DNA of 10,611 nt, from positions 1 through 10,611 of the forward strand of contig CBFGJN010000062.1 in NCBI GenBank assembly GCA_965649115.1. The letters run 5' to 3'. The notes beneath the pieces are model-generated. The model made no database searches. It saw only the letters and a program-made list of their open reading frames with translations, and was not told the DNA's origin. Of the stretch, positions 1 to 10,611 are shown piece after piece. Source of the DNA: a candidate division WOR-3 bacterium (GTDB lineage Bacteria; Hydrothermota; Hydrothermia; LBFQ01; DSFT01). Within the stretch, counting starts at the first letter, position 1; every line of letters starts with the position of its first letter. Made by a program: the position numbers and the translations under genes.

Positions 1-102
1 GCGGAGCCCCCCATTAAAACCCCCCTAAAAATCAATAATTTTCTTGAAAATTTTATAAGTAATTGATTATCAGACATTTAGCAATAATTACTAGACAAAC
101 CA
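1..102 (+). mobile_element. MITE-like repeat, copy 1 (right part; truncated by window start)
   Basis: Ends in AATTACTAGACAAACCA (86-102), whose reverse complement TGGTTTGTCTAGTAATT matches the family TIR. CCCATTAAAACCCCC is shared with 10588-10602. ATAAGTAATTGATTATCAG (55-73) matches 2987-3005 at 18/19. Confidence 0.75.
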
Positions 103-111
103 AATTTATAA

Positions 112-240
112 TGCTGTGTCTAATAATTCTAAAAATATCTTATTTTCTTTATTTTTCCCACCCACCCTACGAAATAAGACTATGCCTTTATAATGCTCAT
201 ATTTTCAGCTTTGGGAGCTTCTCCCCCCTTAAAAAACTTA
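112..240 (+). mobile_element. MITE-like repeat, copy 2 (left part, no right TIR)
   Basis: Starts with TGCTGTGTCTAATAATT (112-128), 15/17 identical to the terminus of the 8653-8808 copy. It continues collinearly with that copy: TATTTTTCCCACCCACCCTACGAAATAAG vs TATTTTCCCCACTCACCCTGAAATTAAG, then ATAATGCTCATATTTT vs ATAAATGCCCATTTTT. Right boundary is approximate. Confidence 0.75.
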
Positions 241-247
241 AAACTAT

Positions 248-2917
248 TTATTTAGAAATATAAAGGAATTTAAACTTTTCCTTTTTAAAGTCAGTCTCTA
301 CATCTAACAAATATATACCTTTTGATTTAAAATTAAGAGGAATTCTATTTATTCCTTTTTCAAGTTTATCATTTATTTCAAGCAATTTTCTTCCATCAAC
401 TGAATATGCAATAATTTTAACATTAGTTCTGTTATTTGTTGATATTTCAATAAAGTTAGTTTTTAGTTTAATATAGTTTTTGTAAATTTTGTTTTCTGAA
501 ATATCTGTAAGTAATGTATCATAAACAATTCTCATCATAAGATTGCCATAGAACATAGGGTTAAATCCTGGATTGCTTGGTCCTTGCCAATACCAATAGC
601 TTGAAGAATCAGAAAATGGTGTTTCATCAAAATTATCATCAAAACCAATATAAGGTGTACTTGGGTAGTTTTGAAGGTAGTTTAAAGCTAACCATACTTT
701 TGTTCCACCAGCTACTTTTTGATTTACATTAAATTCAAACCATCCTTGATAATTTCCGATTGTAATTGTTTGAGGTGGAATTATGAAGTTTGATAATGAT
801 GGAAGGGAAGAGCTATCGGAATTTAGAGAAATTTGAAATTGTGTTGTTTGTGGAGAGTAGATATAAAGTTTTAGCTTTCTTATTAAGAAAGTATCTTTAT
901 AAGTTGGAAATTTATAACCTTTAAAAAATTTATTGTTGTAAAAGTCGCTAGATACATAGTAAAAAGCATTTACTTCTCCATCATCTCCAATTAATTCCAT
1001 CAGAGAATTTAAGTTTCTAATTGTTGTATCATTGTTTGTAAAATAGTCATCAATAGTATTAGTAATAACTTTTAATTGATAATTTCCCCTTGGAAGTAGT
1101 GTCATATTCGTATTTGTTATTAGGACTTCTTGATGTTTTGGTATGAAAGCATTATTGCTGTCTTTAAAAACTTGATTATTAAACTGATCAGTTATTATAA
1201 AATAAACCTTTACATTGTCGTCATAAGAGCCGTTATTTTTGATTTTAGCATAAATTTTAAATGGATTGTATTCTGAGAATTCCAAGTAAGGATATATAAT
1301 TTTTTTAGGTGATATATCGTGGTAATTTATAGAGGTTCTTATTGCTCTGTTATTTGTTGTGTCTTGGTCTGATGGGTAGGATATAATATATTCAAAATCG
1401 TAAATTCCATATTGGCTTGGAACAAAATTCTTAAAATTGATTTGTAATTCACTATTTGGAGATATTGTTGAGACGATTGAGGAATCGGTATCTATAAGTG
1501 TTGAGTTGTAATAGATTTTTGTATATACTTTAAAGTTAGAAGCTGTATTTGAACCTACATTTTTTATCTTTATTATATTTTGGTAATTTTGGTTTGTTTG
1601 TAAGTCAGTAGGAGGAGAAACAATTTGACTAATAGCCAAATCTGTGCTATAAGGATCTATTATTTTAAAAGCATATACATATCCACCATTTCCAAAATCT
1701 CTTGCATGAGCAGCTTTACCACCTGCAATAGCATATCTACCATCTTTTGAAATTCTTGCTAAAAAACAAGAACCTTTTTCATTTAAATTTGTCGCATCAT
1801 CTGGGACATTTATTATGACATTTCCTAGTGAGTCATAAATAGTTATTAAATCTCCAAATGTTCCATTATATTTACCCCAAGAACATACTATCATTCTGCT
1901 TCCATCAGAAGATATTGAAACACTACTTACATAATCTCCATAATTATTATTTGACCATTTTAAAACTAACTGATTATTTGAAATTTCAAAGAAATGAACT
2001 GAACCTGCATCTGATGGAGAGTAAATATAAGTTCCTAAAATTATATATTTTCCATTATCTGATATGTCTCCATCTGTTATCCATTTTCCAGAACCAAGGT
2101 TATAACTTGAAAGCAGATTATATGTGCTTCCATTGAATTTATAAACATTTACAATTCCATTAAATCCATATTGTAAAAGGTAATCCCCACTTCCTGAAAG
2201 TTTTGCTGATGTTTGACCGTAATTGCTTATTGTGGAAATAACAGAACCATTTTGGGTATTTAGAACTGTTACTTTATAGTATTGACTTATAGCTATTTTT
2301 GAATTATCTAAACTAAAACTTACGCCATAAAATCCATAATCATTTGGATTAGCATTGTATGTCCAAAGAACTGATTTTGTTTGGTTATTTATATAAATTA
2401 CTTTATAATCATTTGTTAGAAGTACACTATAATTACCATCTGGGCTTACAAATGCATTAAACACATTTGAATTAGAATAGGAATAAATAGGATTTGGTGA
2501 TGAACTTTTCATAAAGTCAAAATCAGAGCCAAGCATTGAAACCGCTATCTTTTTGTTCCATCTTGATGGCCAGGCAAATAAGTCAGCCCACCATAAACCA
2601 CTTTTATAATATACCCAATCAGGATTTGAAGAACCATTAGTAAAATACCTACTAACTCTTTCATTATTTAATGTCCAACCTATAACTATTTCCGAACCAT
2701 CGTTGTAAATTCCTCCACTTTGAGCGATAGCATATAAATGGTTATTGTCAATCCAAAGAATTTGAGCAGAAAGGATAGAAGGATTAGTAGGTGTAGGTTT
2801 TGGAGTGTATGAACTTTCAGTTTTATAAGGTGTTTTATATCTTTGATAAAGAATTCCACTTATTCTGGTTGTTTCTACTTCAACTGATAAAATCCCTTGA
2901 TATAGTATAATAATCAT
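248..2917 (-). CDS. Secreted multidomain protein: WD40-like beta-propeller, two CARDB/Ig-like domains, C-terminal T9SS type A-like sorting domain
   Basis: 889-aa ORF. Propeller-type repeats (VSPDGNY, VSFSLDNSKIA, ISDNGKYI, ISSDGSRM, ISKDGRYA). Two CARDB-like units (DLAISQI..IKNVGS..DQDTTNN; DISPKKI..IKNNGS..DDYFTNND). The C-terminus VKIIAYSVDGRKL..SKGIYLLDVET..KF resembles the Por/T9SS C-terminal domain. Short hydrophobic N-terminus. Confidence 0.8.
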   Translation of the reverse strand: MIIILYQGILSVEVETTRISGILYQRYKTPYKTESSYTPKPTPTNPSILSAQILWIDNNHLYAIAQSGGIYNDGSEIVIGWTLNNERVSRYFTNGSSNPDWVYYKSGLWWADLFAWPSRWNKKIAVSMLGSDFDFMKSSSPNPIYSYSNSNVFNAFVSPDGNYSVLLTNDYKVIYINNQTKSVLWTYNANPNDYGFYGVSFSLDNSKIAISQYYKVTVLNTQNGSVISTISNYGQTSAKLSGSGDYLLQYGFNGIVNVYKFNGSTYNLLSSYNLGSGKWITDGDISDNGKYIILGTYIYSPSDAGSVHFFEISNNQLVLKWSNNNYGDYVSSVSISSDGSRMIVCSWGKYNGTFGDLITIYDSLGNVIINVPDDATNLNEKGSCFLARISKDGRYAIAGGKAAHARDFGNGGYVYAFKIIDPYSTDLAISQIVSPPTDLQTNQNYQNIIKIKNVGSNTASNFKVYTKIYYNSTLIDTDSSIVSTISPNSELQINFKNFVPSQYGIYDFEYIISYPSDQDTTNNRAIRTSINYHDISPKKIIYPYLEFSEYNPFKIYAKIKNNGSYDDNVKVYFIITDQFNNQVFKDSNNAFIPKHQEVLITNTNMTLLPRGNYQLKVITNTIDDYFTNNDTTIRNLNSLMELIGDDGEVNAFYYVSSDFYNNKFFKGYKFPTYKDTFLIRKLKLYIYSPQTTQFQISLNSDSSSLPSLSNFIIPPQTITIGNYQGWFEFNVNQKVAGGTKVWLALNYLQNYPSTPYIGFDDNFDETPFSDSSSYWYWQGPSNPGFNPMFYGNLMMRIVYDTLLTDISENKIYKNYIKLKTNFIEISTNNRTNVKIIAYSVDGRKLLEINDKLEKGINRIPLNFKSKGIYLLDVETDFKKEKFKFLYISK

Positions 2918-2923
2918 TCTGAA

Positions 2924-2929
2924 ATTTTA
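2924..2929 (-). promoter_or_regulatory. Putative -10 element (TAAAAT) 6 nt upstream of the ATG
   Basis: Minus strand reads GCTTTAAAATTTCAGA-ATG; the same motif precedes four other units. Confidence 0.55.
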
Positions 2930-2939
2930 AAGCATTTTA

Positions 2940-3034
2940 TTTATTCGGCTTTGGGGGGCTAAATCTATAATTTAATCAATTTTTTCATAAGTTATTGATT
3001 ATCAGGGACTTAACATCATTTACTAGATAACGAA
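2940..3034 (+). mobile_element. MITE-like repeat, copy 3 (degenerate middle and right part)
   Basis: TTCGGCTTTG is shared with 10575-10584 and is followed by a G-run. 2987-3005 matches copy 1 at 18/19. Ends in TTACTAGATAACGAA, resembling the right TIR TTACTAGACAAACCA. Confidence 0.65.
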
Positions 3035-3080
3035 AATCTCAAAAATGACAACCCCTCTGAAACTTATTAATTTCTTTTAT

Positions 3081-4064
3081 TTATTTCAATGCTTTTAAAA
3101 CACTTTCAATAATGATTTCTTCATTTATGTTTTCTAAACATATTGGAACGGAAAAACGACATTTATTTTTCAAACATGGAGAACAATCTAAATTTATTCT
3201 TATAACTTTCAGAAATTGTTTATTATAAGGAGCTGTATTATTTTCATCACCTGCTCCAAATAAGACAATTGTTTTTATATTTAGTGCATTTGAAAGATGA
3301 GCTGGACCTGAATCAGTTGAGAGCATTAAATCACAGGCTTTTAAAATTTTAGCAAGTTCAATTAAATTAGTTTTTCCTGCTAAGTTTATAATTTTATCCT
3401 TGTTTTTTAGTGTTTCAATTAACCAATAAACTCTTTTAGTGTCTTTTTTTGAACCTGTTAAGATAAAGTAAGCGTCTATTTCTCTTTTTAGGGTTTCTAT
3501 GATTTTAGCCCACTTCGGAATTGACATTCTTCTACTTTCTGCTTCTGAATTTATATTTATAGCAATTTTATATTTTGAATTTAGTTTTATTATTTCTTCA
3601 TCAGGTTCAACATTTAGTTTCAAGTTTATATTTTCAATTGGATTTTTAATAAAATCTTTTAGTAAATAGCAATATTCTTCAACTCTATGTAAATTTTTTG
3701 GTTTTTTGTAGGCTCTTGTAAGTAAAAAATTTCTCAGTTCATTTCTATAACCTATTCTTTCCTTTGCATTTAGAAAATAACCTATTAGTGCACTTGAAAA
3801 CGAATTTGGAAGAGAAAAATAAATATCAAATTTTTCATTTATTTCTTTTGCCCATTTATATATTCCGAAAAATCCTTTGTATTGATGTTTTGAGAAATAA
3901 TAAATCCTCTCAAAATTTCCAAATAAATTTAATAATTCACCAATTTCAGGTTTTACAATAGCATAAATTTTTGCATCTTTAAAAGTTTCTTTAAGTTTGT
4001 TATAAAATCCATTAGACATAACTAAATCGCCTAACCAATTTGGAAATTTTATTGCTATTTTCAA
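3081..4064 (-). CDS. waaF: Lipopolysaccharide heptosyltransferase II (glycosyltransferase family 9)
   Basis: N-terminal PNWLGDLVM, then PNSFSSA, RIGY, NLAGKTNL, TDSGPAHL, LFG and a C-terminal CSPC..C..C cluster, all typical of GT9/WaaF. TTG start. Confidence 0.88.
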   Translation of the reverse strand: MKIAIKFPNWLGDLVMSNGFYNKLKETFKDAKIYAIVKPEIGELLNLFGNFERIYYFSKHQYKGFFGIYKWAKEINEKFDIYFSLPNSFSSALIGYFLNAKERIGYRNELRNFLLTRAYKKPKNLHRVEEYCYLLKDFIKNPIENINLKLNVEPDEEIIKLNSKYKIAININSEAESRRMSIPKWAKIIETLKREIDAYFILTGSKKDTKRVYWLIETLKNKDKIINLAGKTNLIELAKILKACDLMLSTDSGPAHLSNALNIKTIVLFGAGDENNTAPYNKQFLKVIRINLDCSPCLKNKCRFSVPICLENINEEIIIESVLKALK

Positions 4065-4072
4065 GTTTCAAA

Positions 4073-4078
4073 ATTTTA
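4073..4078 (-). promoter_or_regulatory. Putative -10 element (TAAAAT) 8 nt upstream of the waaF TTG start
   Basis: Minus strand reads GCATTAAAATTTTGAAAC-TTG. Confidence 0.45.
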
Positions 4079-4100
4079 ATGCTGTACTTTTGCCTTCGGC

Positions 4101-4190
4101 TGCCTTGTCCAACCACCCAAAAATAAGCTTTTCCGCTTCCTAACGCCCCCATTGACTATCAATGAATTGATACTATTGTTTTAATGGGGG
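4101..4190 (+). mobile_element. MITE-like repeat, copy 4 (internally deleted and rearranged)
   Basis: TGCCTTGTCCAA (TIR-like) is fused directly to CCACCCAAAAATAAG, as expected from a deletion between the two CAA microhomologies seen in the 10485 copy. GTTTTAATGGGGG (4178-4190) is the exact reverse complement of CCCCCATTAAAAC (8-20). Confidence 0.55.
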
Positions 4191-4213
4191 TTTTTAAGGA
4201 TAGAAATATTAAC

Positions 4214-6932
<2,719 letters not shown>

Positions 6933-6946
6933 AACTTCAATTAATT

Positions 6947-7007
6947 CCCCCCGAAAAACTATAATTTCAAAAAAATTTTTATAACTCATTATTTAGTGGA
7001 CAAAAAA
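6947..7007 (+). repeat. Highly degenerate right-end remnant of the MITE-like repeat (copy 5)
   Basis: CCCCCCGAAAAACTATAATTTCAAAAAAATTTTTATAA parallels CCCCCCTAAAAATCAATAATTTTCTTGAAAATTTTATAA of copy 1. TTAGTGGACAAA resembles the TIR (TTACTAGACAAA / TTATTGGATAAA). The sequence is AT-rich, so support is weaker. Confidence 0.45.
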
Positions 7008-7016
7008 TTTTTGCTT

Positions 7017-7022
7017 TAAAAT
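7017..7022 (+). promoter_or_regulatory. Putative -10 element (TAAAAT) 12 nt upstream of the miaB ATG
   Basis: TGCTTTAAAATTTAAAAACTTTT-ATG, with no Shine-Dalgarno. Confidence 0.45.
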
Positions 7023-7034
7023 TTAAAAACTTTT

Positions 7035-8318
7035 ATGAAAACCTTTTATATTAAAACATTTGGTTGTCAAATGAACGAACTTGATAGTGAGCTTATAAGA
7101 CAAAAACTTTTAAGTGAAGGATATATTGAAGTTGAAAATGAAAAAAATGCTGAAATTATTTTAATAAATACTTGTTCTGTTAGAAGAAAAGCTGAGGAAA
7201 AAGCAATCCATTATTCAAGAGAAATGAAAAACAAAAAGAAAACTGTTGTAATGCTTGGTTGCTTAGCACAACATAAAGGAGAAGAATTACTTAAAATTGC
7301 AAAAGCTGATATTGTAATTGGAACAAAAAGTTATGAAAAAATAATTGATATTTTATTAGACTTTGAAAGAAAGCAAACAAAAAGAGCAATATGTGAAGAT
7401 TTAGGTATATTTCAACTTAAAAGTAGAAAAGTTAAAGAGGGAGAATTTTCAGCTTATGTAAATATTCAGCATGGATGTGATAACTTTTGTACATTCTGTG
7501 TTGTCCCTTATACACGAGGAAGAGAAGTTTCAAGAAAAGCAAGTGATATATTAGAAGAAATAAAACAACTTGAAGAGCAAGGAATTGTTGAAATTGTTTT
7601 ACTTGGACAAAATGTAGATTCCTATTTTGATGGAAAATATGATTTTTCGGATTTATTAAAACTAATTGAAGATGAAACAAAATATATAAGAAGAATAAAA
7701 TTTACAAGTCCAAATCCAAGAGATATAACGATGAAAGTAATAAGAACAATTGCTCAATCTGAAAAAATTGTCAGATGGATTCATTTGCCACTTCAAGCAG
7801 GTTCAAATAAAATTTTAAAAAGAATGAATAGAGGATATACAAAAGAAGAGTACATTTACCAAGCTTTAACAATAAGAGATATTATTAAAGATGTTAGTAT
7901 TACAACTGATATTATAGTAGGATTTCCTTCTGAAACAGACGAAGACTTTGAAGAAACTCTAGATGTTGTAAGAACAGTAAAATATGATGGTGCTTATATG
8001 TTCAAATACTCACCAAGAGAAGGAACACCAGCAAGTTTATTTAAAGAACAAATTGATAATGAAACAAAAGGGAGAAGATTAAGAAGACTTATAGATGAAG
8101 TTAATAAAGCAATCTCTGAAAGAAGAAAATTAATGATTAACAAAGAATATGAAGTTTTAGTTGAAAGCTATAATTCTAAGGATTTTGGTTATAGTTTAGG
8201 TAAAACATTTAACAACATATCAGTCTTAATCAAAGGATTTTTCAAACCAGGAACATTTCTAAAAGGAATTGTTAAAGATATAAAAGGACACACCCCTATT
8301 ATTGAAGTTAGAAATTGA
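7035..8318 (+). CDS. miaB: tRNA-2-methylthio-N6-dimethylallyladenosine synthase (radical SAM methylthiotransferase)
   Basis: UPF0004 cysteines TFGCQMNE.DS, NTCSVR, GCLAQ; radical SAM motif GCDNFCTFCVVPYTRGRE.SR; LLGQNV.SY; HLPLQAGS; TDIIVGFP.ET; YSPREGT; C-terminal TRAM-like region. Confidence 0.93.
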   Translation: MKTFYIKTFGCQMNELDSELIRQKLLSEGYIEVENEKNAEIILINTCSVRRKAEEKAIHYSREMKNKKKTVVMLGCLAQHKGEELLKIAKADIVIGTKSYEKIIDILLDFERKQTKRAICEDLGIFQLKSRKVKEGEFSAYVNIQHGCDNFCTFCVVPYTRGREVSRKASDILEEIKQLEEQGIVEIVLLGQNVDSYFDGKYDFSDLLKLIEDETKYIRRIKFTSPNPRDITMKVIRTIAQSEKIVRWIHLPLQAGSNKILKRMNRGYTKEEYIYQALTIRDIIKDVSITTDIIVGFPSETDEDFEETLDVVRTVKYDGAYMFKYSPREGTPASLFKEQIDNETKGRRLRRLIDEVNKAISERRKLMINKEYEVLVESYNSKDFGYSLGKTFNNISVLIKGFFKPGTFLKGIVKDIKGHTPIIEVRN

Positions 8319-8650
8319 AATCCATTGTTGAAGTTTTATTAAAAAGAAAGATGTATTATAAAGTCCTAAAAGCAATTTATGAGCTTAATAATGAGGGAAA
8401 AATGTCAGTAGGTGTTAGAAAATTGGGAGAAAAACTTGGATATAGAAATTTAATTTCAAAAATTTTAAAAAAACTACAAAATGAAGGATTAATTGAAATA
8501 GTCAATGAAAGAGTTAATAACAGAAAGCCAAGAAAAGTTGCTTATTTAACCCCAAAAGGAGAAATTCTTTTAAAAGAAGTAAAAAAAAGAAAAATTCTTA
8601 TATTAAGGCAGAAGTTAAAAAATATAAAAAAAGAAATTGACCATTTATAA
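8315..8650 (+). CDS. Small basic winged helix-turn-helix DNA-binding protein
   Basis: 111 aa and lysine-rich. VRKLGEKLG..LISKILKKLQNEGLIE followed by a wing and YLTPKGE, as in MarR/PadR/ArsR-like folds. The TTG start overlaps the miaB stop (TTGA). Confidence 0.7.
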   Translation: MKSIVEVLLKRKMYYKVLKAIYELNNEGKMSVGVRKLGEKLGYRNLISKILKKLQNEGLIEIVNERVNNRKPRKVAYLTPKGEILLKEVKKRKILILRQKLKNIKKEIDHL

Positions 8651-8652
8651 TT

Positions 8653-8808
8653 TGCTTTATCCAATAATTAAGGAAATTACTGATTTAACAGGGGGATTAT
8701 TAGGAGGGCTCTGTCCCCCATGGCATAAAAATGGGCATTTATAAGCCGAAGGCTTAATTTCAGGGTGAGTGGGGAAAATATAATATAGTTCCATTACTAG
8801 ACACAGCA
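8653..8808 (-). mobile_element. Complete 156-bp MITE-like element (copy 6) with TIRs and target-site duplication
   Basis: Left end TGCTTTATCCAATAATT (8653-8669); reverse complement of right end TGCTGTGTCTAGTAATG (8792-8808), 12/17 match. Flanked on both sides by TTTATAATT (8644-8652 and 8809-8817). No coding capacity. Orientation is opposite to the other copies. Confidence 0.82.
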
Positions 8809-8816
8809 TTTATAAT

Positions 8817-9233
8817 TTATCTTACTACTAAAACTGAGCAATGGGCATTATCTACAACTTTATCAACAGTTGCTCCAAGTATCCTTTTTAAATAGGAGTG
8901 TTTTTTTGTTCCAAGGACAATCAAATCAACATTTAATGTTTCTGCTACTTTCATTATAACATCAGAAGGCTTTCCAAACTCCAATAATATCTCATAATCT
9001 AAATTCCTGGATTTTAGCATTTCTTCTACTTTTTGAAGAATTTTTGAATAGAATTTTTTAGCTTGTCTTTTTGATTCCTCAATTTCGTCAATAGTTTGAA
9101 CATATTCTGGTATTCTACCAACAGTTAGAATATATACTTTACTTTTGAAAATCTCTGCTAATTCCAAAGCCTTTTTAAAGGCAAGCTCTGAACTTTCAGA
9201 ACCATCATATCCTAATAAAATTTTCTTAAACAT
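8817..9233 (-). CDS. Universal stress protein (UspA family)
   Basis: MFKKILLGYDGSE.S..A, GKPSDVI, DLIVLG, LGATVDKVV..AHCSVLVVR. A strong SD, AGGAGGTG, lies just upstream of the ATG. Confidence 0.95.
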   Translation of the reverse strand: MFKKILLGYDGSESSELAFKKALELAEIFKSKVYILTVGRIPEYVQTIDEIEESKRQAKKFYSKILQKVEEMLKSRNLDYEILLEFGKPSDVIMKVAETLNVDLIVLGTKKHSYLKRILGATVDKVVDNAHCSVLVVR

Positions 9234-9236
9234 TTT

Positions 9237-10391
9237 TCACCTCCTTATCTTAAATCTTCTTAAAGCTCTTTCATGCTTATAAATTGGTTTAAAGAAACTA
9301 TTGGCAATAATAGTTGGAATTAAAGCTGTCAAAATTACACAAACAACCAATACTGAATATTGCTCTCTATTTATAATTCCATTTTGAAGTCCAAAAAGTG
9401 CAGAAATTGTTCCAAATGTTAATCCTGTACTCATCATTAGTGTAGTATAAGCATTTACTCTTAGATTGAATTTAAATAAATAACCAAGTGGAAAAATACC
9501 CAAAAACTTAGCAACAATTTTTGAAAAGAAAAATATAACTACAAGTATAACAGAAGAAATAACAACTTTTAAATCAACCAAACTACCAGCTTTTAAGAAA
9601 TAAAATGGTGTTAAAATTGAAACTGCCGTTGCTCTCATTCTCCTTACTAATTCTTTATTTTTCATAAATTGATTTGCTAAAACAGCACCTATTATATAAG
9701 CAGGTAAAACTGCTTCAAGATAACCTTTTACCGCAAAAAATCCAAATAAAGCAATAATAACAAATGTAAATTTTACTTCTGGTTCAGATGGATGATTTTT
9801 TACCCATTTAAAAAAATAATTTGAAATAAATGGAATAATAGGCGTTAATACAATCATAAGAATTGAAAACAAATAAAACCAGAAATCAAATTTTGTAAAA
9901 ATAAGCCCTAATGCTATAACCGTTCCCAAATCATTTACAAAACAAGCAGCAAGTATAACCTTTCCAAGATTTGTTTCGTTCAAACCACTTTCAACCATTA
10001 CCGCATAAACAACAGCAACTGATGTAGTAGATAAAGCAATACCAGAGATTAAAGCTTGACTTAAATTCCAATTTAAAAAGAAGTAAGTTATAATTGAAAC
10101 AAAAATAAATGGAGCGAAAAAGCCAGCAAGACCTAAAAAAACTGACTCTTTCCAATATTTTTTTACAACTTCACTTTCAAGCTCAGCACCTGCCAAAAAT
10201 GTTAGAATTACAGCTCCAAAAGTCGCTAAGAAGCTTATCCATTCTGTAATTTCGGGCTTTATAGTATTTCCAGCAACAATACCAACTAAAAGTTCAATAA
10301 GTGAGGATGAGATATTTGTAATAAAAGCGGTTATGCTTGAAACAAAAACAAGGAAAAACCAAATGAAAATTTCCCACCAGAGTTTTTCCAT
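9237..10391 (-). CDS. Cation:proton antiporter (CPA/Na_H_Exchanger superfamily), about 12 TM, no KTN domain
   Basis: Highly hydrophobic 384-aa protein. ELLVGIVAG, LTFLAGAELE, ALSTTSVAVV, ILAACFVNDL, AYIIGAVL and PFYFLKAG match CPA2-type helices. Confidence 0.9.
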   Translation of the reverse strand: MEKLWWEIFIWFFLVFVSSITAFITNISSSLIELLVGIVAGNTIKPEITEWISFLATFGAVILTFLAGAELESEVVKKYWKESVFLGLAGFFAPFIFVSIITYFFLNWNLSQALISGIALSTTSVAVVYAVMVESGLNETNLGKVILAACFVNDLGTVIALGLIFTKFDFWFYLFSILMIVLTPIIPFISNYFFKWVKNHPSEPEVKFTFVIIALFGFFAVKGYLEAVLPAYIIGAVLANQFMKNKELVRRMRATAVSILTPFYFLKAGSLVDLKVVISSVILVVIFFFSKIVAKFLGIFPLGYLFKFNLRVNAYTTLMMSTGLTFGTISALFGLQNGIINREQYSVLVVCVILTALIPTIIANSFFKPIYKHERALRRFKIRR

Positions 10392-10394
10392 AAT

Positions 10395-10447
10395 TAGGCG
10401 TCATCATCCCACCTCTGGTGGGCGGTTAAGGGGAGACGCCATTCCCC
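10395..10447 (-). ncRNA. Fluoride riboswitch (crcB motif)
   Basis: Minus strand GGGGAATGGCGTCTCCCCTTAACCGCCCACCAGAGGTGGGATGATGACGCCTA. P1 GGGGA/TCCCC, pseudoknot GGCGTC/GACGCC, P2 CCCACC-AGA-GGTGGG. The conserved AUGG, AACCGC and GAUGAC..CUA segments match the crcB consensus. Confidence 0.93.
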
Positions 10448-10456
10448 AGTTTGAAA

Positions 10457-10486
10457 ATTTTAAAGCCTAAGGCCATATTTTGTCTG
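10457..10486 (-). promoter_or_regulatory. Putative promoter for the riboswitch operon: TAAAAT (10457-10462) with a weak -35 CAGACA (10481-10486), 18-nt spacer
   Basis: The -10 lies 9 nt upstream of the first base of aptamer P1, which would place the start site just before the aptamer. Confidence 0.5.
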
Positions 10487-10611
10487 CTTTGTCCAATAAT
10501 TCGGAAAGTATAGTTATTTCTATATTTTGCTCAACCACACTAAAATTAAGGCAGAGCCTTTAAAATACCCATATTTCGGCTTTGCCTCCCATTAAAACCC
10601 CCTATAAAATC
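10485..10611 (+). mobile_element. MITE-like repeat, copy 7 (left part; truncated by window end)
   Basis: Starts with TGCTTTGTCCAATAATT (10485-10501), 16/17 identical to 8653-8669. Then CAACCACACTAAAATTAAG, hairpin AAGGCAGAGCCTT, TTCGGCTTTG and CCCATTAAAACCCCCTATAAAATC, all collinear with the other copies. Confidence 0.78.

What the first reader, a model, noticed from the sequence alone, without database searches (positions are those of the whole stretch)
176..10586. Internal GC hairpins of the repeat change sequence but keep pairing and mostly 3-nt loops
Seen, hairpin 1 at the same position in four copies: AAGAC-TAT-GCCTT (176-188, one mismatch), AAGC-TTTTCC-GCTT (4125-4138), TAAGCC-GAA-GGCTTA (8742-8756) and AAGGC-AGA-GCCTT (10548-10560). 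The stem switches between GCC/GGC and GGC/GCC. Hairpin 2: GC-GGA-GCCCCCC (1-12, truncated), GGGAG-CTT-CTCCC (213-225), GGAGGGC-TCT-GTCCCCC (8703-8719, imperfect) and GGC-TTT-GCC (10578-10586). Similar GCC-NNN-GGC mini-hairpins sit just outside two copies (4092-4100, 10465-10473). Established: GNA triloop mini-hairpins such as GCGAAGC are unusually stable in single-stranded DNA. Inference: compensatory change in a very AT-rich background implies selection on structure, for example an ssDNA/cruciform signal, a protein-binding site or a structured RNA, beyond what a neutral decaying MITE would show.
Basis: partly seen in the sequence, partly recalled or inferred. Interest (0 to 1): 0.72.

Follow-up and report, generated by a model that had tools for sequence, protein, structure and literature searches.

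The report
Paired hairpins inside an abundant MITE
The small GC-rich hairpins seen in this window are two internal modules of a ~205-base mobile repeat that fills about 6% of a hot-spring bacterium's genome, and one of them really does keep its base pairing while its letters change.

Summary
The repeat is a MITE of about 205 bp with 16-bp terminal inverted repeats and 9-bp target duplications. It gives 776 HMM hits, about 5.7% of a 1.85-Mb, 27.6% GC hot-spring genome (class Hydrothermia, phylum WOR-3).

Hairpin 1 (AAGSS-NNN-SSCTT) keeps its pairing genome-wide. Its fourth pair is C:G in 376 copies, G:C in 151 and other in 66 of 593. That pair has r2 0.85, the highest of all polymorphic column pairs at least 4 nt apart, while each side is unlinked to its neighbours (r2 at most 0.013). 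Three other pairs have compensated variants in 7-16 copies. A sister species shows the same dimorphism.

Hairpin 2 (GGGGGGC-NNN-GCCCCCC) does not covary. Its stem is nearly invariant, its triloop occurs in both orientations (TTC 49, GAA 33), and it is the element's deletion hotspot.

Resident copies decay, so any constraint acts on the lineages that spread. One-step template switching is a real non-selective rival. No RNA evidence was found: no Rfam match and no G·U strand asymmetry.

Also noticed: 90% orientation bias between co-directional genes, and head-to-tail arrays with exact 9-nt spacers.

The parts
1..102 (+). Right part of a MITE copy cut by the contig start. It holds the 3' part of hairpin 2 at 1-12, a CCCCCC run, the AT-rich inverted repeat, and the right terminal inverted repeat at 87-102.
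   Evidence: nhmmer hit 1-114, HMM 122-234, E 3.5e-21; sequence read
103..111 (.). 9-nt spacer between two head-to-tail copies.
   Evidence: Genome-wide, 158 of 175 junctions from a right to a left terminal repeat have 9-nt spacers.
112..233 (+). Left part of a second MITE copy: left terminal inverted repeat 112-127, CCCACCCACCCT motif, hairpin 1 at 176-188 (one mismatch), hairpin 2 variant at 213-225.
   Evidence: nhmmer hit 110-233, HMM 16-138, E 2.4e-23; terminal repeat found at 112; folds
2944..3032 (+). Partial MITE copy (HMM 108-220) with a degenerate hairpin 2 region and the right half of the element.
   Evidence: nhmmer E 1.9e-14
6941..7004 (+). Weak MITE remnant (HMM 135-219) just upstream of the gene at 7035-8318.
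   Evidence: nhmmer E 1.8e-4 genome-wide. The sister species has independent insertions at this spot.
8644..8652 (.). Left 9-bp target duplication, TTTATAATT, of the copy at 8653-8808.
   Evidence: Read; identical to 8809-8817
8653..8808 (-). Complete but internally shortened MITE copy (156 bp) between two convergent genes. Hairpin 1 at 8742-8756, imperfect hairpin 2 at 8703-8719.
   Evidence: nhmmer hit 8812-8656, E 3.5e-35; terminal repeat end at 8808; no MITE at the matching site of the sister genome
8809..8817 (.). Right 9-bp target duplication, TTTATAATT.
10485..10611 (+). MITE copy cut by the contig end: left terminal repeat 10485-10500, hairpin 1 at 10548-10560 (AAGGC-AGA-GCCTT). The 5' arm and loop of hairpin 2 are deleted, so 10578-10586 is not the homologous stem.
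   Evidence: nhmmer hit 10476-10611, E 2.4e-28; alignment A1
4105..4199 (.). Not confirmed as a copy.
   Evidence: Window-only nhmmer: 4105-4138 (+) E 0.26; 4199-4150 (-) E 6.6e-4. No hit in the genome-wide search.

Best explanation
The hairpins are two internal DNA palindromes of a very abundant, lineage-specific MITE with terminal inverted repeats. It is about 205 bp long, with ends TGCTKTGTCYARTAAT...ATTAYTRGACAAAGCA and 9-bp target duplications.

Shown:
- Hairpin 1 is a 5-bp stem with a triloop whose pairing, not its sequence, is kept in the variants that have multiplied.
- Hairpin 2 is a 7-bp all-G:C palindrome with an invariant stem. Its triloop occurs in both orientations, and the region is often deleted.

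Inferred:
- Both extrude as hairpins when the element is single-stranded, in replication or transposition. This explains the loop inversions and deletions at hairpin 2.
- Hairpin 1 is a cis-acting structure that an element needs in order to spread or to be tolerated on arrival. Variants with an intact stem, including compensated ones, reach many copies, while each inserted copy then decays neutrally.
For: It is a MITE:
- 96 of 223 copies with both ends and both flanks have perfect 9-bp target duplications. The same test gives 11 at 8 bp and 0 at 10 bp.
- 776 hits lie on 93 of 99 contigs, covering 104,845 merged bases or 5.67% of the genome.

Hairpin 1 pairing:
- Pair 79:85 is CG in 376 copies, GC in 151 and other in 66 of 593. 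It is the top corrected mutual information among non-adjacent pairs (0.604).
- r2 is 0.847, the highest of all polymorphic pairs at least 4 nt apart. r2 of either column with its other polymorphic neighbours within 12 columns (eight of them, columns 70-95) is at most 0.013.
- Five fully paired stem haplotypes have 5 or more copies: AAGCC/GGCTT 266, AAGGC/GCCTT 103, AAAGC/GCTTT 16, AAGCT/AGCTT 10, GAGCC/GGCTC 7. These represent compensated changes at four different pairs.
- The tool count on 79 copies gives hairpin 1 97.7% paired, with 4 of 5 pairs changed on both sides and 0 of 500 shuffles reaching that. RNAalifold finds hairpin 1 on its own.
- Internal control: polymorphic positions of the left and right terminal repeats barely covary (17:213 -0.014, 28:202 -0.006, 22:208 0.051, 24:206 0.096).
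- Replicate in the sister genome G002: CG 35, GC 12, other 4 of 51.

The constraint acts at spread, not in place:
- Hairpin 1 is fully paired in 90% of 90 copies with perfect target duplications, against 67% (n 21) and 79% (n 103) in the rest.
- The A/T columns of hairpin 1 vary as little as the terminal repeats (0.021 against 0.023; other columns 0.059).
- Hairpin 1 is the internal segment least often deleted, with a gap fraction of 0.00-0.02. Only 9 of 233 copies carry a deletion touching it.

Hairpin 2 behaves as a DNA palindrome:
- Loops come with their reverse complements: TTC 49 / GAA 33, TTT 30 / AAA 17, GGA 13 / TCC 12, AGA 41 / TCT 9.
- 85 of 233 copies carry a deletion of 8 nt or more touching it, and 32 of those have intact target duplications. 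One deletion (columns 102-142) recurs at 10 loci.
Against: - No transposase with matching ends was found, so no mobilisation mechanism can be tied to hairpin 1.
- MITEs of this type are generally thought to need only their terminal repeats (my knowledge).
- Mismatched hairpin 1 haplotypes have also multiplied: nine with 5 or more copies, up to 17. Pairing is therefore not an absolute requirement.
- Fixed G/C columns of hairpin 1 vary as much as other fixed G/C columns (0.090 against 0.079).
- Hairpin 1 is weak by nearest-neighbour energies: as RNA, -6.2 kcal/mol at 37 C, -2.4 at 60 C and -0.2 at 75 C. The habitat is hot springs.
- Template switching can produce compensated pairs without selection (PMC8794818).
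- About 50 biallelic columns are nearly unlinked on a tree: state changes run at 0.56-0.92 of the shuffled expectation, and 0.81 for 79:85. The number of independent switches therefore cannot be counted.
Confidence: 0.5

Rival explanations
1. The palindromes are neutral. Hairpins 1 and 2 have no role and were simply inherited from the ancestral element. Pairing persists because intra-hairpin template switching in replication corrects or compensates mismatches in one step, and because most copies are young. The G:C form of pair 79:85 is one such event that drifted to 25%.
For: - Hairpin 2 loops occur in both orientations, a footprint of template switching (mechanism in PMC8794818, passages read).
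- Resident copies decay.
- Stem G/C columns vary as much as other fixed G/C columns.
- Mismatched haplotypes also reach 5-17 copies.
- No strand asymmetry of wobble-type changes.
Against: - Hairpin 1 loops almost never invert (TTC 282, GAA 5), so switching across hairpin 1 looks rare.
- The AT positions that would extend the hairpin 1 stem are not made complementary: 74:90 is 56% paired and 75:89 is 62%.
- Hairpin 1 is the least deleted internal segment, and its A/T columns are as conserved as the terminal repeats.
- Paired derived haplotypes total 136 copies in 4 lineages, against 74 copies in 9 mismatched lineages.
Confidence: 0.27
2. The hairpins act in RNA. When the element is transcribed, they work as a terminator, an mRNA 3'-end stabiliser, a processing site or a small RNA. 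This would explain why the element has a preferred direction relative to genes.
For: - Between co-directional genes, the G-rich strand runs with the genes in 187 of 207 core-containing copies. By region the count is 121 all one way, 12 all the other, 4 mixed.
- The bias holds within contigs and for minority-strand genes, 72 against 11, and in the sister genome, 16 against 1.
- Copies start a median of 19 nt after the upstream stop codon.
- On that strand hairpin 1 carries GAA/GTA loops and is followed by a T-rich stretch.
- MITE transcripts acting as terminators or stabilisers have precedent (PMC3049150 and PMC10969869, passages read).
Against: - No orientation preference toward the nearest gene in convergent regions (18 against 19 and 11 against 20), and only a weak one in divergent regions. 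A selected terminator or stabiliser should show one.
- The terminator and promoter scan on three tandem copies found 0 terminator-like sites, and 3 promoter-like sites against 3.2 expected.
- No Rfam match.
- Wobble-type single changes are equal on the two strands, 45 against 48.
- The orientation rule is explained as well by the strand asymmetry of C and G runs. One candidate is a C-rich transcript acting as a Rho loading site; rho is present. That explanation needs no hairpin.
Confidence: 0.15
3. Hairpin 1 is a double-stranded palindromic binding site for a dimeric protein, and the symmetry of its half-sites rather than base pairing is what is kept.
For: - Hairpin 1 is a perfect interrupted palindrome with invariant outer AAG...CTT.
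- The two halves always change together.
Against: A protein that accepts either C or G at that position has no need for the two halves to match. Yet mixed sites (CC 11, GG 7 of 593) are rare. Four different positions show symmetric changes, which fits pairing better than base-specific contacts.
Confidence: 0.06

Closest known systems
Prokaryotic MITEs with terminal inverted repeats (Correia elements, RUP, BOX, SPRITE, Coxiella QMITEs)
   Same: Small, non-coding and AT-rich, with terminal inverted repeats and target duplications. They sit in intergenic DNA, occur in many copies and in clusters, and are predicted to form stable stem-loops (review PMC10969869 and PMC3049150, passages read).
   Different: - Density is far higher here: about 5.7% of the genome, with hits in 344 intergenic regions.
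- The orientation rule is 90% between co-directional genes, whereas pneumococcal repeats mirror coding bias at about 61-63% (PMC3049150).
- It forms head-to-tail arrays with exact 9-nt spacers.
- It has an internal hairpin with compensated variants.
- No cognate insertion sequence was found.
REP / REPIN elements mobilised by RAYT transposases
   Same: Short GC-rich extragenic palindromes in high copy number that form hairpins in single strands (PMC3337134 and PMC3733652, abstracts seen in search listings).
   Different: This element has 16-bp terminal inverted repeats and 9-bp target duplications. No Y1/RAYT transposase was found in the three genomes that carry it. The hairpins are internal, not the mobile unit.
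Extraordinarily stable DNA mini-hairpins with GNA triloops, d(GCGAAGC)
   Same: On the G-rich strand, hairpin 1 reads S-C-GAA-G-S: a GAA or GTA triloop closed by C:G in 319 of 409 copies. The motif is described in PMC13037366 and PMC3201870 (abstracts seen in a search listing).
   Different: The excess is largely one inherited loop. Variants that spread include AAA (44 copies), which is not GNA. Hairpin 2 has GNA on one strand or the other in only 112 of 221 triloops. No melting data exist, and the folding parameters used carry no special term for this loop.
Hairpins created and maintained by template-switch mutation
   Same: One-step compensatory changes and inverted loops at perfect stems (PMC8794818, passages read). 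Hairpin 2 shows loops together with their reverse complements.
   Different: That work concerns RNA genes across species. Here the pattern is among hundreds of copies of a mobile element in one genome. Hairpin 1 shows compensation without loop inversion.
IS5-family insertion sequences of the IS903 group
   Same: This is a lead only.
   Different: Not tested. The terminal repeat of IS903 is recalled from memory and was not compared. DDE_Tnp_1 and two related Pfam families gave no match in the MITE-bearing genomes.

Membership tests
MITE (non-autonomous DNA transposon with terminal inverted repeats) | Terminal inverted repeats | tested here: met
   16-bp ends TGCTKTGTCYARTAAT / ATTAYTRGACAAAGCA. 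The invariant columns pair 94-100% between the two ends.
MITE (non-autonomous DNA transposon with terminal inverted repeats) | Target site duplication of fixed length | tested here: met
   Perfect 9-bp duplication in 96 of 223 copies; 11 at 8 bp and 0 at 10 bp. The window copy at 8653-8808 has TTTATAATT on both sides.
MITE (non-autonomous DNA transposon with terminal inverted repeats) | Small, non-coding, many dispersed copies | tested here: met
   Modal length 204-206 bp; 776 hits on 93 of 99 contigs. 650 of 776 hits overlap called ORFs by less than 10%.
MITE (non-autonomous DNA transposon with terminal inverted repeats) | Evidence of movement (sites filled in one genome, empty or differently filled in a relative) | tested here: met
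   No MITE at the G002 site matching window 8653-8808. There are independent insertions in opposite orientation upstream of the gene at 7035. The family was found in 3 of 5 genomes of the genus and in none of 26 from other genera, and in 2 of 151 genomes across the phylum with the covariance model.
MITE (non-autonomous DNA transposon with terminal inverted repeats) | Cognate autonomous element with the same ends | tested here: not met
   No long element flanked by the repeats and a duplication in G000. PF01609, PF13737, PF13586, PF00665 and PF01797 gave no match in the carrier genomes (PF01609; the rest). PF00872 gave one broken fragment in G003 with no matching ends. These are draft MAGs at 87-94.5% completeness, so absence is not shown.
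REP / REPIN | Palindrome is the mobile unit; no target duplication; RAYT (Y1) transposase present | tested here: not met
   9-bp duplications are present. No Y1_Tnp in G000, G002 or G003.
Structured non-coding RNA gene | Match to a described RNA family | tested here: not met
   No Rfam match at E up to 1 in the repeat copies of the window or in loci L014 and L003.
Structured non-coding RNA gene | Covariation supporting a multi-helix fold, with wobble intermediates favoured on the transcribed strand | tested here: inconclusive
   Only hairpin 1 covaries. Hairpin 2 is invariant, and the terminal repeats do not covary with each other. G.T-type against A.C-type single changes are 45 against 48.
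Structured non-coding RNA gene | Expression as a discrete RNA | not testable with these tools
   No RNA run is listed among 13 runs.
Intrinsic (Rho-independent) terminator | GC-rich stem directly followed by a run of T | tested here: not met
   0 terminator-like sites on either strand of L014:1-700, which holds three tandem copies. Hairpin 2 is followed by TTAAT/ATTAAA or AAAGCC, and hairpin 1 by about 4 T in 8 bases.

The most novel reading that the evidence does not exclude
Hairpin 1 is a structure-specific cis signal: a small triloop hairpin, stable at high temperature, that must form in single-stranded DNA for this element to be mobilised. On this reading, a MITE with terminal inverted repeats and 9-bp duplications depends on an internal hairpin as well as on its ends. 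The same machinery would place new copies head-to-tail exactly 9 nt from a resident copy, building arrays.
Probability: 0.2. Interest if true: 0.65.

Novelty: new member of a known kind. Interest (0 to 1): 0.45.

Why it matters
- It documents a previously undescribed mobile repeat of very high density in an uncultured thermophilic lineage (WOR-3, class Hydrothermia). The one WOR-3 genomics paper I text-searched (PMC12542636) contains none of the words transpos-, MITE, repeat or insertion sequence.
- It gives a clean natural data set, with hundreds of copies in one genome and a second species as replicate. In it, selection on structure can be separated from template-switch mutation, and constraint on spreading can be separated from constraint in place.
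- It warns that compensated pairs in a repeat family are not by themselves evidence of a functional RNA.
- The orientation rule and the 9-nt arrays are testable leads on how a compact genome tolerates being about 6% MITE.

Tried and rejected
- **RNA evidence:** no RNA holder is listed among 13 runs. Twelve DNA holders come from 7 studies, mostly hot-spring metagenomes.
- **Laying contigs of 4 runs on the window:** contigs break at the repeat and pile up on it. No clean empty site or bridging contig could be read, so this adds nothing on presence or absence.
- **Autonomous partner:** none found. There is no long pair of terminal repeats with a duplication in G000.
  - PF01609 gave 0 in G000 and in the four other genomes of the genus. 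Hits in other genera carry no matching ends.
  - PF13737, PF00665, PF13586 and PF01797 gave 0 in G000, G002 and G003.
  - PF00872 gave one broken fragment in G003 without matching ends.
  - Twenty-six viral contigs match a 19-letter end pattern, but none holds the repeat core.
- **IS903 lead:** the likeness of the ends to the IS903 group is recalled, not tested. The paper I opened (PMC11708052, passages) does not print the repeat.
- **Promoter and terminator scan on three tandem copies:** nothing above shuffles.
- **Counting independent CG/GC switches on a tree:** 34 changes against 41.8 ± 2.5 in shuffles. About 50 other biallelic columns behave alike, so the tree has too little signal to count events.
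- **Are the rare copies in the disfavoured orientation more decayed?** No clear difference: median score 83.8 against 94.2, and 8 of 30 are full length.
- **Query and offset errors:** the DNA query straddled two adjacent copies; it was repeated with correct limits. Searches used a wrong column offset, corrected.
- **Supplements:** no supplementary files were consulted.

Full report
**What the window is.** The window is one whole contig (C62) of a 1,848,020-base draft genome of 99 contigs with 27.6% G+C. Both contig ends lie inside the repeat.
- The closest named relative by DNA ligase (94% amino-acid identity) is a MAG titled Candidatus Hydrothermia bacterium. That places the organism in phylum WOR-3.
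- Twelve public DNA runs from 7 studies hold parts of the window, and most are labelled hot-spring metagenomes.
- The genes are ordinary. A fluoride riboswitch lies at 10388-10455 on the minus strand (47.3 bits).

**What the repeat is.** I started from one genomic copy and ran two rounds of nhmmer.
- The second round gave 776 hits at E up to 0.001, on 93 of 99 contigs. Merged, they cover 104,845 bases, or 5.67% of the genome. Twenty-four hit pairs overlap, mostly palindromic parts hit on both strands.
- Most hits start and end at fixed profile positions that form 16-bp terminal inverted repeats.
- Of 233 copies with both ends, 223 have both flanks on the contig. Of those, 96 have a perfect 9-bp direct repeat of the flank, against 11 at 8 bp and 0 at 10 bp.
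- The modal length is 204-206 bp.
- The duplicated 9-mers are 81% A+T.

This is a MITE. From the left end, the element holds:
- a CCCACCCACCCT motif;
- hairpin 1 (columns 76-80 and 84-88, consensus AAGCC-TTC-GGCTT);
- CCCAT;
- hairpin 2 (columns 112-118 and 122-128, GGGGGGC-NNN-GCCCCCC);
- a CCCCCC run;
- an AT-rich inverted repeat;
- the right end.

Six of the eight lie at the homologous positions.
- 4125-4138 is not supported as a copy: E 0.26 in a window-only search.
- 10578-10586 is not the hairpin 2 stem. That copy has lost the 5' arm and loop of hairpin 2.
- In the window itself the hairpins are weak. As DNA they fold at 0 to -4.2 kcal/mol, and 8703-8719 is no better than shuffled sequence.
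- A well-kept genomic copy folds into both hairpins at -16/-15.4 kcal/mol, z -2.8/-3.5.

**Hairpin 1 covaries.** I used the HMM alignment, which knows nothing of structure.
- Pair 79:85 has the highest corrected mutual information of all non-adjacent column pairs, 0.604. It is CG in 376 copies, GC in 151 and other in 66 of 593.
- Among 65 polymorphic columns its r2 is 0.847, the top of all pairs at least 4 nt apart. The median r2 at 6-8 nt is 0.02. The r2 of column 79 or 85 with any other polymorphic neighbour in columns 70-95 is at most 0.013. Simple closeness on the DNA therefore does not explain the link.
- Other pairs show doubles about as often as each kind of transition single:
  - 78:86 has AT 18, against GT 9 and AC 8;
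  - 76:88 has GC 11, against AC 8 and GT 4;
  - 80:84 has TA 15, against TG 19 and CA 20.
- Five fully paired stem haplotypes have 5 or more copies (266, 103, 16, 10, 7). They differ by compensated changes at four different pairs. Nine mismatched haplotypes also have 5 or more copies, up to 17.
- Overall, 404 of 573 copies with a complete hairpin 1 are fully paired.
- I also aligned 79 copies with MAFFT. These are all the core-containing copies in 20 fetched regions plus the window, out of 511 genome-wide. The tool count gives 94.7% of cells paired and 8 of 12 pairs changed on both sides. No shuffle of 500 reaches the observed value for four of five measures, and slid controls give 44-72% paired.
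- RNAalifold predicts hairpin 1 only.
- The polymorphic positions of the two terminal repeats, which could also pair, barely covary (-0.014 to 0.096).
- In 56 copies from 33 loci of the sister genome G002, the pair is CG 35, GC 12 and other 4 of 51.

**How many events?** This cannot be counted. On a tree of 149 full copies built without the hairpin 1 columns, the CG/GC state needs 34 changes, against 41.8 ± 2.5 for shuffled labels. About 50 other biallelic columns behave the same way, with ratios of 0.56-0.92. The family is a mosaic of nearly unlinked variants, so the tree carries little signal.

**Hairpin 2 is different.**
- Its stem pairs are G:C in 86-96% of copies for the five cleanly aligned pairs, with few doubles.
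- Its loop is hypervariable. In 242 copies with a perfect core, 221 loops have 3 nt and 21 have 4 nt.
- Loops come with their reverse complements in comparable numbers: TTC 49 / GAA 33, TTT 30 / AAA 17, GGA 13 / TCC 12, AGA 41 / TCT 9. Hairpin 1 does not do this (TTC 282, GAA 5).
- Hairpin 2 is also the deletion hotspot. The gap fraction is about 0.25 over columns 103-122, against 0.00-0.02 at hairpin 1.
- 85 of 233 two-ended copies have a deletion of 8 nt or more touching hairpin 2, and 32 of them keep perfect duplications. Only 9 have one touching hairpin 1. One deletion (columns 102-142) is found at 10 loci. Hairpin 2 is therefore dispensable for spread.
- Loop inversion and compensatory change in one step are described footprints of template switching in replication (PMC8794818, passages read).

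**Where the constraint acts.**
- Fixed G/C columns in the stems vary as much as other fixed G/C columns: 0.090 and 0.086, against 0.079.
- The A/T columns of hairpin 1 vary as little as the terminal repeats: 0.021 and 0.023, against 0.059 elsewhere.
- In copies with perfect duplications, hairpin 1 is fully paired in 90% of 90 copies, with 0.020 unpaired per pair, while other fixed columns differ at 0.032 per site.
- In copies with 1-2 duplication mismatches it is 67% (n 21). With 3 or more mismatches it is 79% (n 103).
- Hairpin 1 therefore arrives paired and then decays. The filter acts on what spreads, not on resident copies. The middle class is small, and the last class includes array members, so this is a trend and not a rate.

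**DNA or RNA?**
- Rfam has no match.
- No RNA run is listed.
- Single changes that would be G.U on one strand or the other are equal, 45 and 48.
- Hairpin 1 has GNA loops on the G-rich strand in 319 of 409 copies. Most are the one consensus loop, and AAA, which is not GNA, has spread to 44 copies.
- By nearest-neighbour energies, hairpin 1 as RNA is -6.2, -2.4 and -0.2 kcal/mol at 37, 60 and 75 C. Hairpin 2 is -16.6, -11.1 and -7.5.

**Orientation.** I used simple longest-ORF gene calls (1,757 genes).
- Between co-directional genes, the G-rich strand of the element runs with the genes in 268 of 298 hits.
- For copies that hold the asymmetric core, the count is 187 of 207. By region it is 121 all one way, 12 all the other and 4 mixed.
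- The rule holds inside contigs that have genes on both strands (174 against 16) and for minority-strand genes (72 against 11). It therefore follows transcription and not replication.
- It recurs in G002, 16 against 1.
- Convergent regions show no preference toward the nearest gene, and divergent regions show only a weak one. This fits avoidance of a polar effect when the C-rich strand is transcribed between a promoter and a gene better than it fits a selected terminator. One candidate is Rho loading on the C-rich RNA; rho is present. This step is inference and needs no hairpin.

**Arrays.**
- Of 41 adjacent two-ended copies within 60 nt, 34 are head-to-tail with exactly 9 nt between them, and 3 are in opposite orientation.
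- Genome-wide, 158 of 175 junctions from a right end to a left end have 9-nt spacers.
- The spacer equals an outer flank (at most 1 mismatch) in 34 of 68 comparisons.
- Neighbours are no more alike than random pairs: identity 0.775 against 0.780.
- Arrays are thus built by separate insertions into the same 9-bp target beside a resident copy, not by tandem duplication.

**Spread and mobility.**
- A DNA search found the element in G000, G002 and G003, and in none of 28 other relatives (that query straddled two copies, and the repeat confirmed G002 and G003).
- A covariance model of the core found it in 2 of 151 genomes sampled across the phylum, from 76 genera.
- At the site matching window 8653-8808, G002 has no MITE.
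- Upstream of the gene at 7035 the two species carry different insertions in opposite orientation.

**Verdict.** The best reading (about 0.5) is that these are DNA palindromes of a MITE, with hairpin 1 pairing filtered at the level of spread. The main rival (about 0.27) is neutral palindromes kept by template switching. An RNA role has about 0.15. The element is a new member of a known kind.

Noticed in passing
window 10388-10455 (-): Fluoride riboswitch (RF01734, 47.3 bits, E 9e-11) upstream of the 384-aa membrane protein gene at 9237-10391. A MITE copy begins 30 nt further upstream.
   Followed up: partly
genome-wide; window 1-233, 2944-3032, 10485-10611: Between co-directional genes the G-rich strand of the MITE runs with the genes in about 90% of copies: 187 of 207, and 121 of 137 regions. 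The bias follows gene strand rather than contig, and recurs in the sister genome (16 against 1).
   Followed up: yes
window 87-127; genome-wide: Head-to-tail arrays with exact 9-nt spacers (158 of 175 junctions). Neighbouring units are no more alike than random pairs, so new copies insert beside resident ones into the same 9-bp target.
   Followed up: yes
window 8644-8652 and 8809-8817: The duplicated target TTTATAATT carries the stop codons of both convergent genes (8315-8650 on the plus strand, 8817-9233 on the minus strand). The insertion split two abutting gene ends, and the duplication left each with its stop.
   Followed up: partly
window 6941-7034; G002:C39:3650-4100 (L031, L107): The same spot upstream of the gene at 7035 carries different MITE insertions in opposite orientation in the two species. 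It looks like an insertion hotspot next to a TGCTTT motif.
   Followed up: partly
MITE alignment, 65 polymorphic columns: About a quarter to a third of the element's columns (roughly 50-65 of 205, depending on threshold) are biallelic at intermediate frequency and nearly unlinked, even at 1-3 nt (median r2 0.06-0.09). The family is a mosaic rather than a set of subfamilies. The cause is unknown; recurrent mutation or exchange between copies are candidates.
   Followed up: partly
window 4146-4196: CCCCCATT...AATGGGGG inverted repeat followed by TTTTT on the plus strand. It looks like a terminator but faces no plus-strand gene end, and it overlaps a weak reverse-strand MITE remnant hit.
   Followed up: no
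G000:C51:12029-12247 (L109): A rho gene is present (Rho_RNA_bind, 89.6 bits, 437-aa frame). This is relevant to the idea that the C-rich strand is avoided as a transcript.
   Followed up: no
window 1 and 10611: Both contig ends fall inside MITE copies. The repeat is what fragments this assembly, and depth piles up on it in metagenome contigs.
   Followed up: partly
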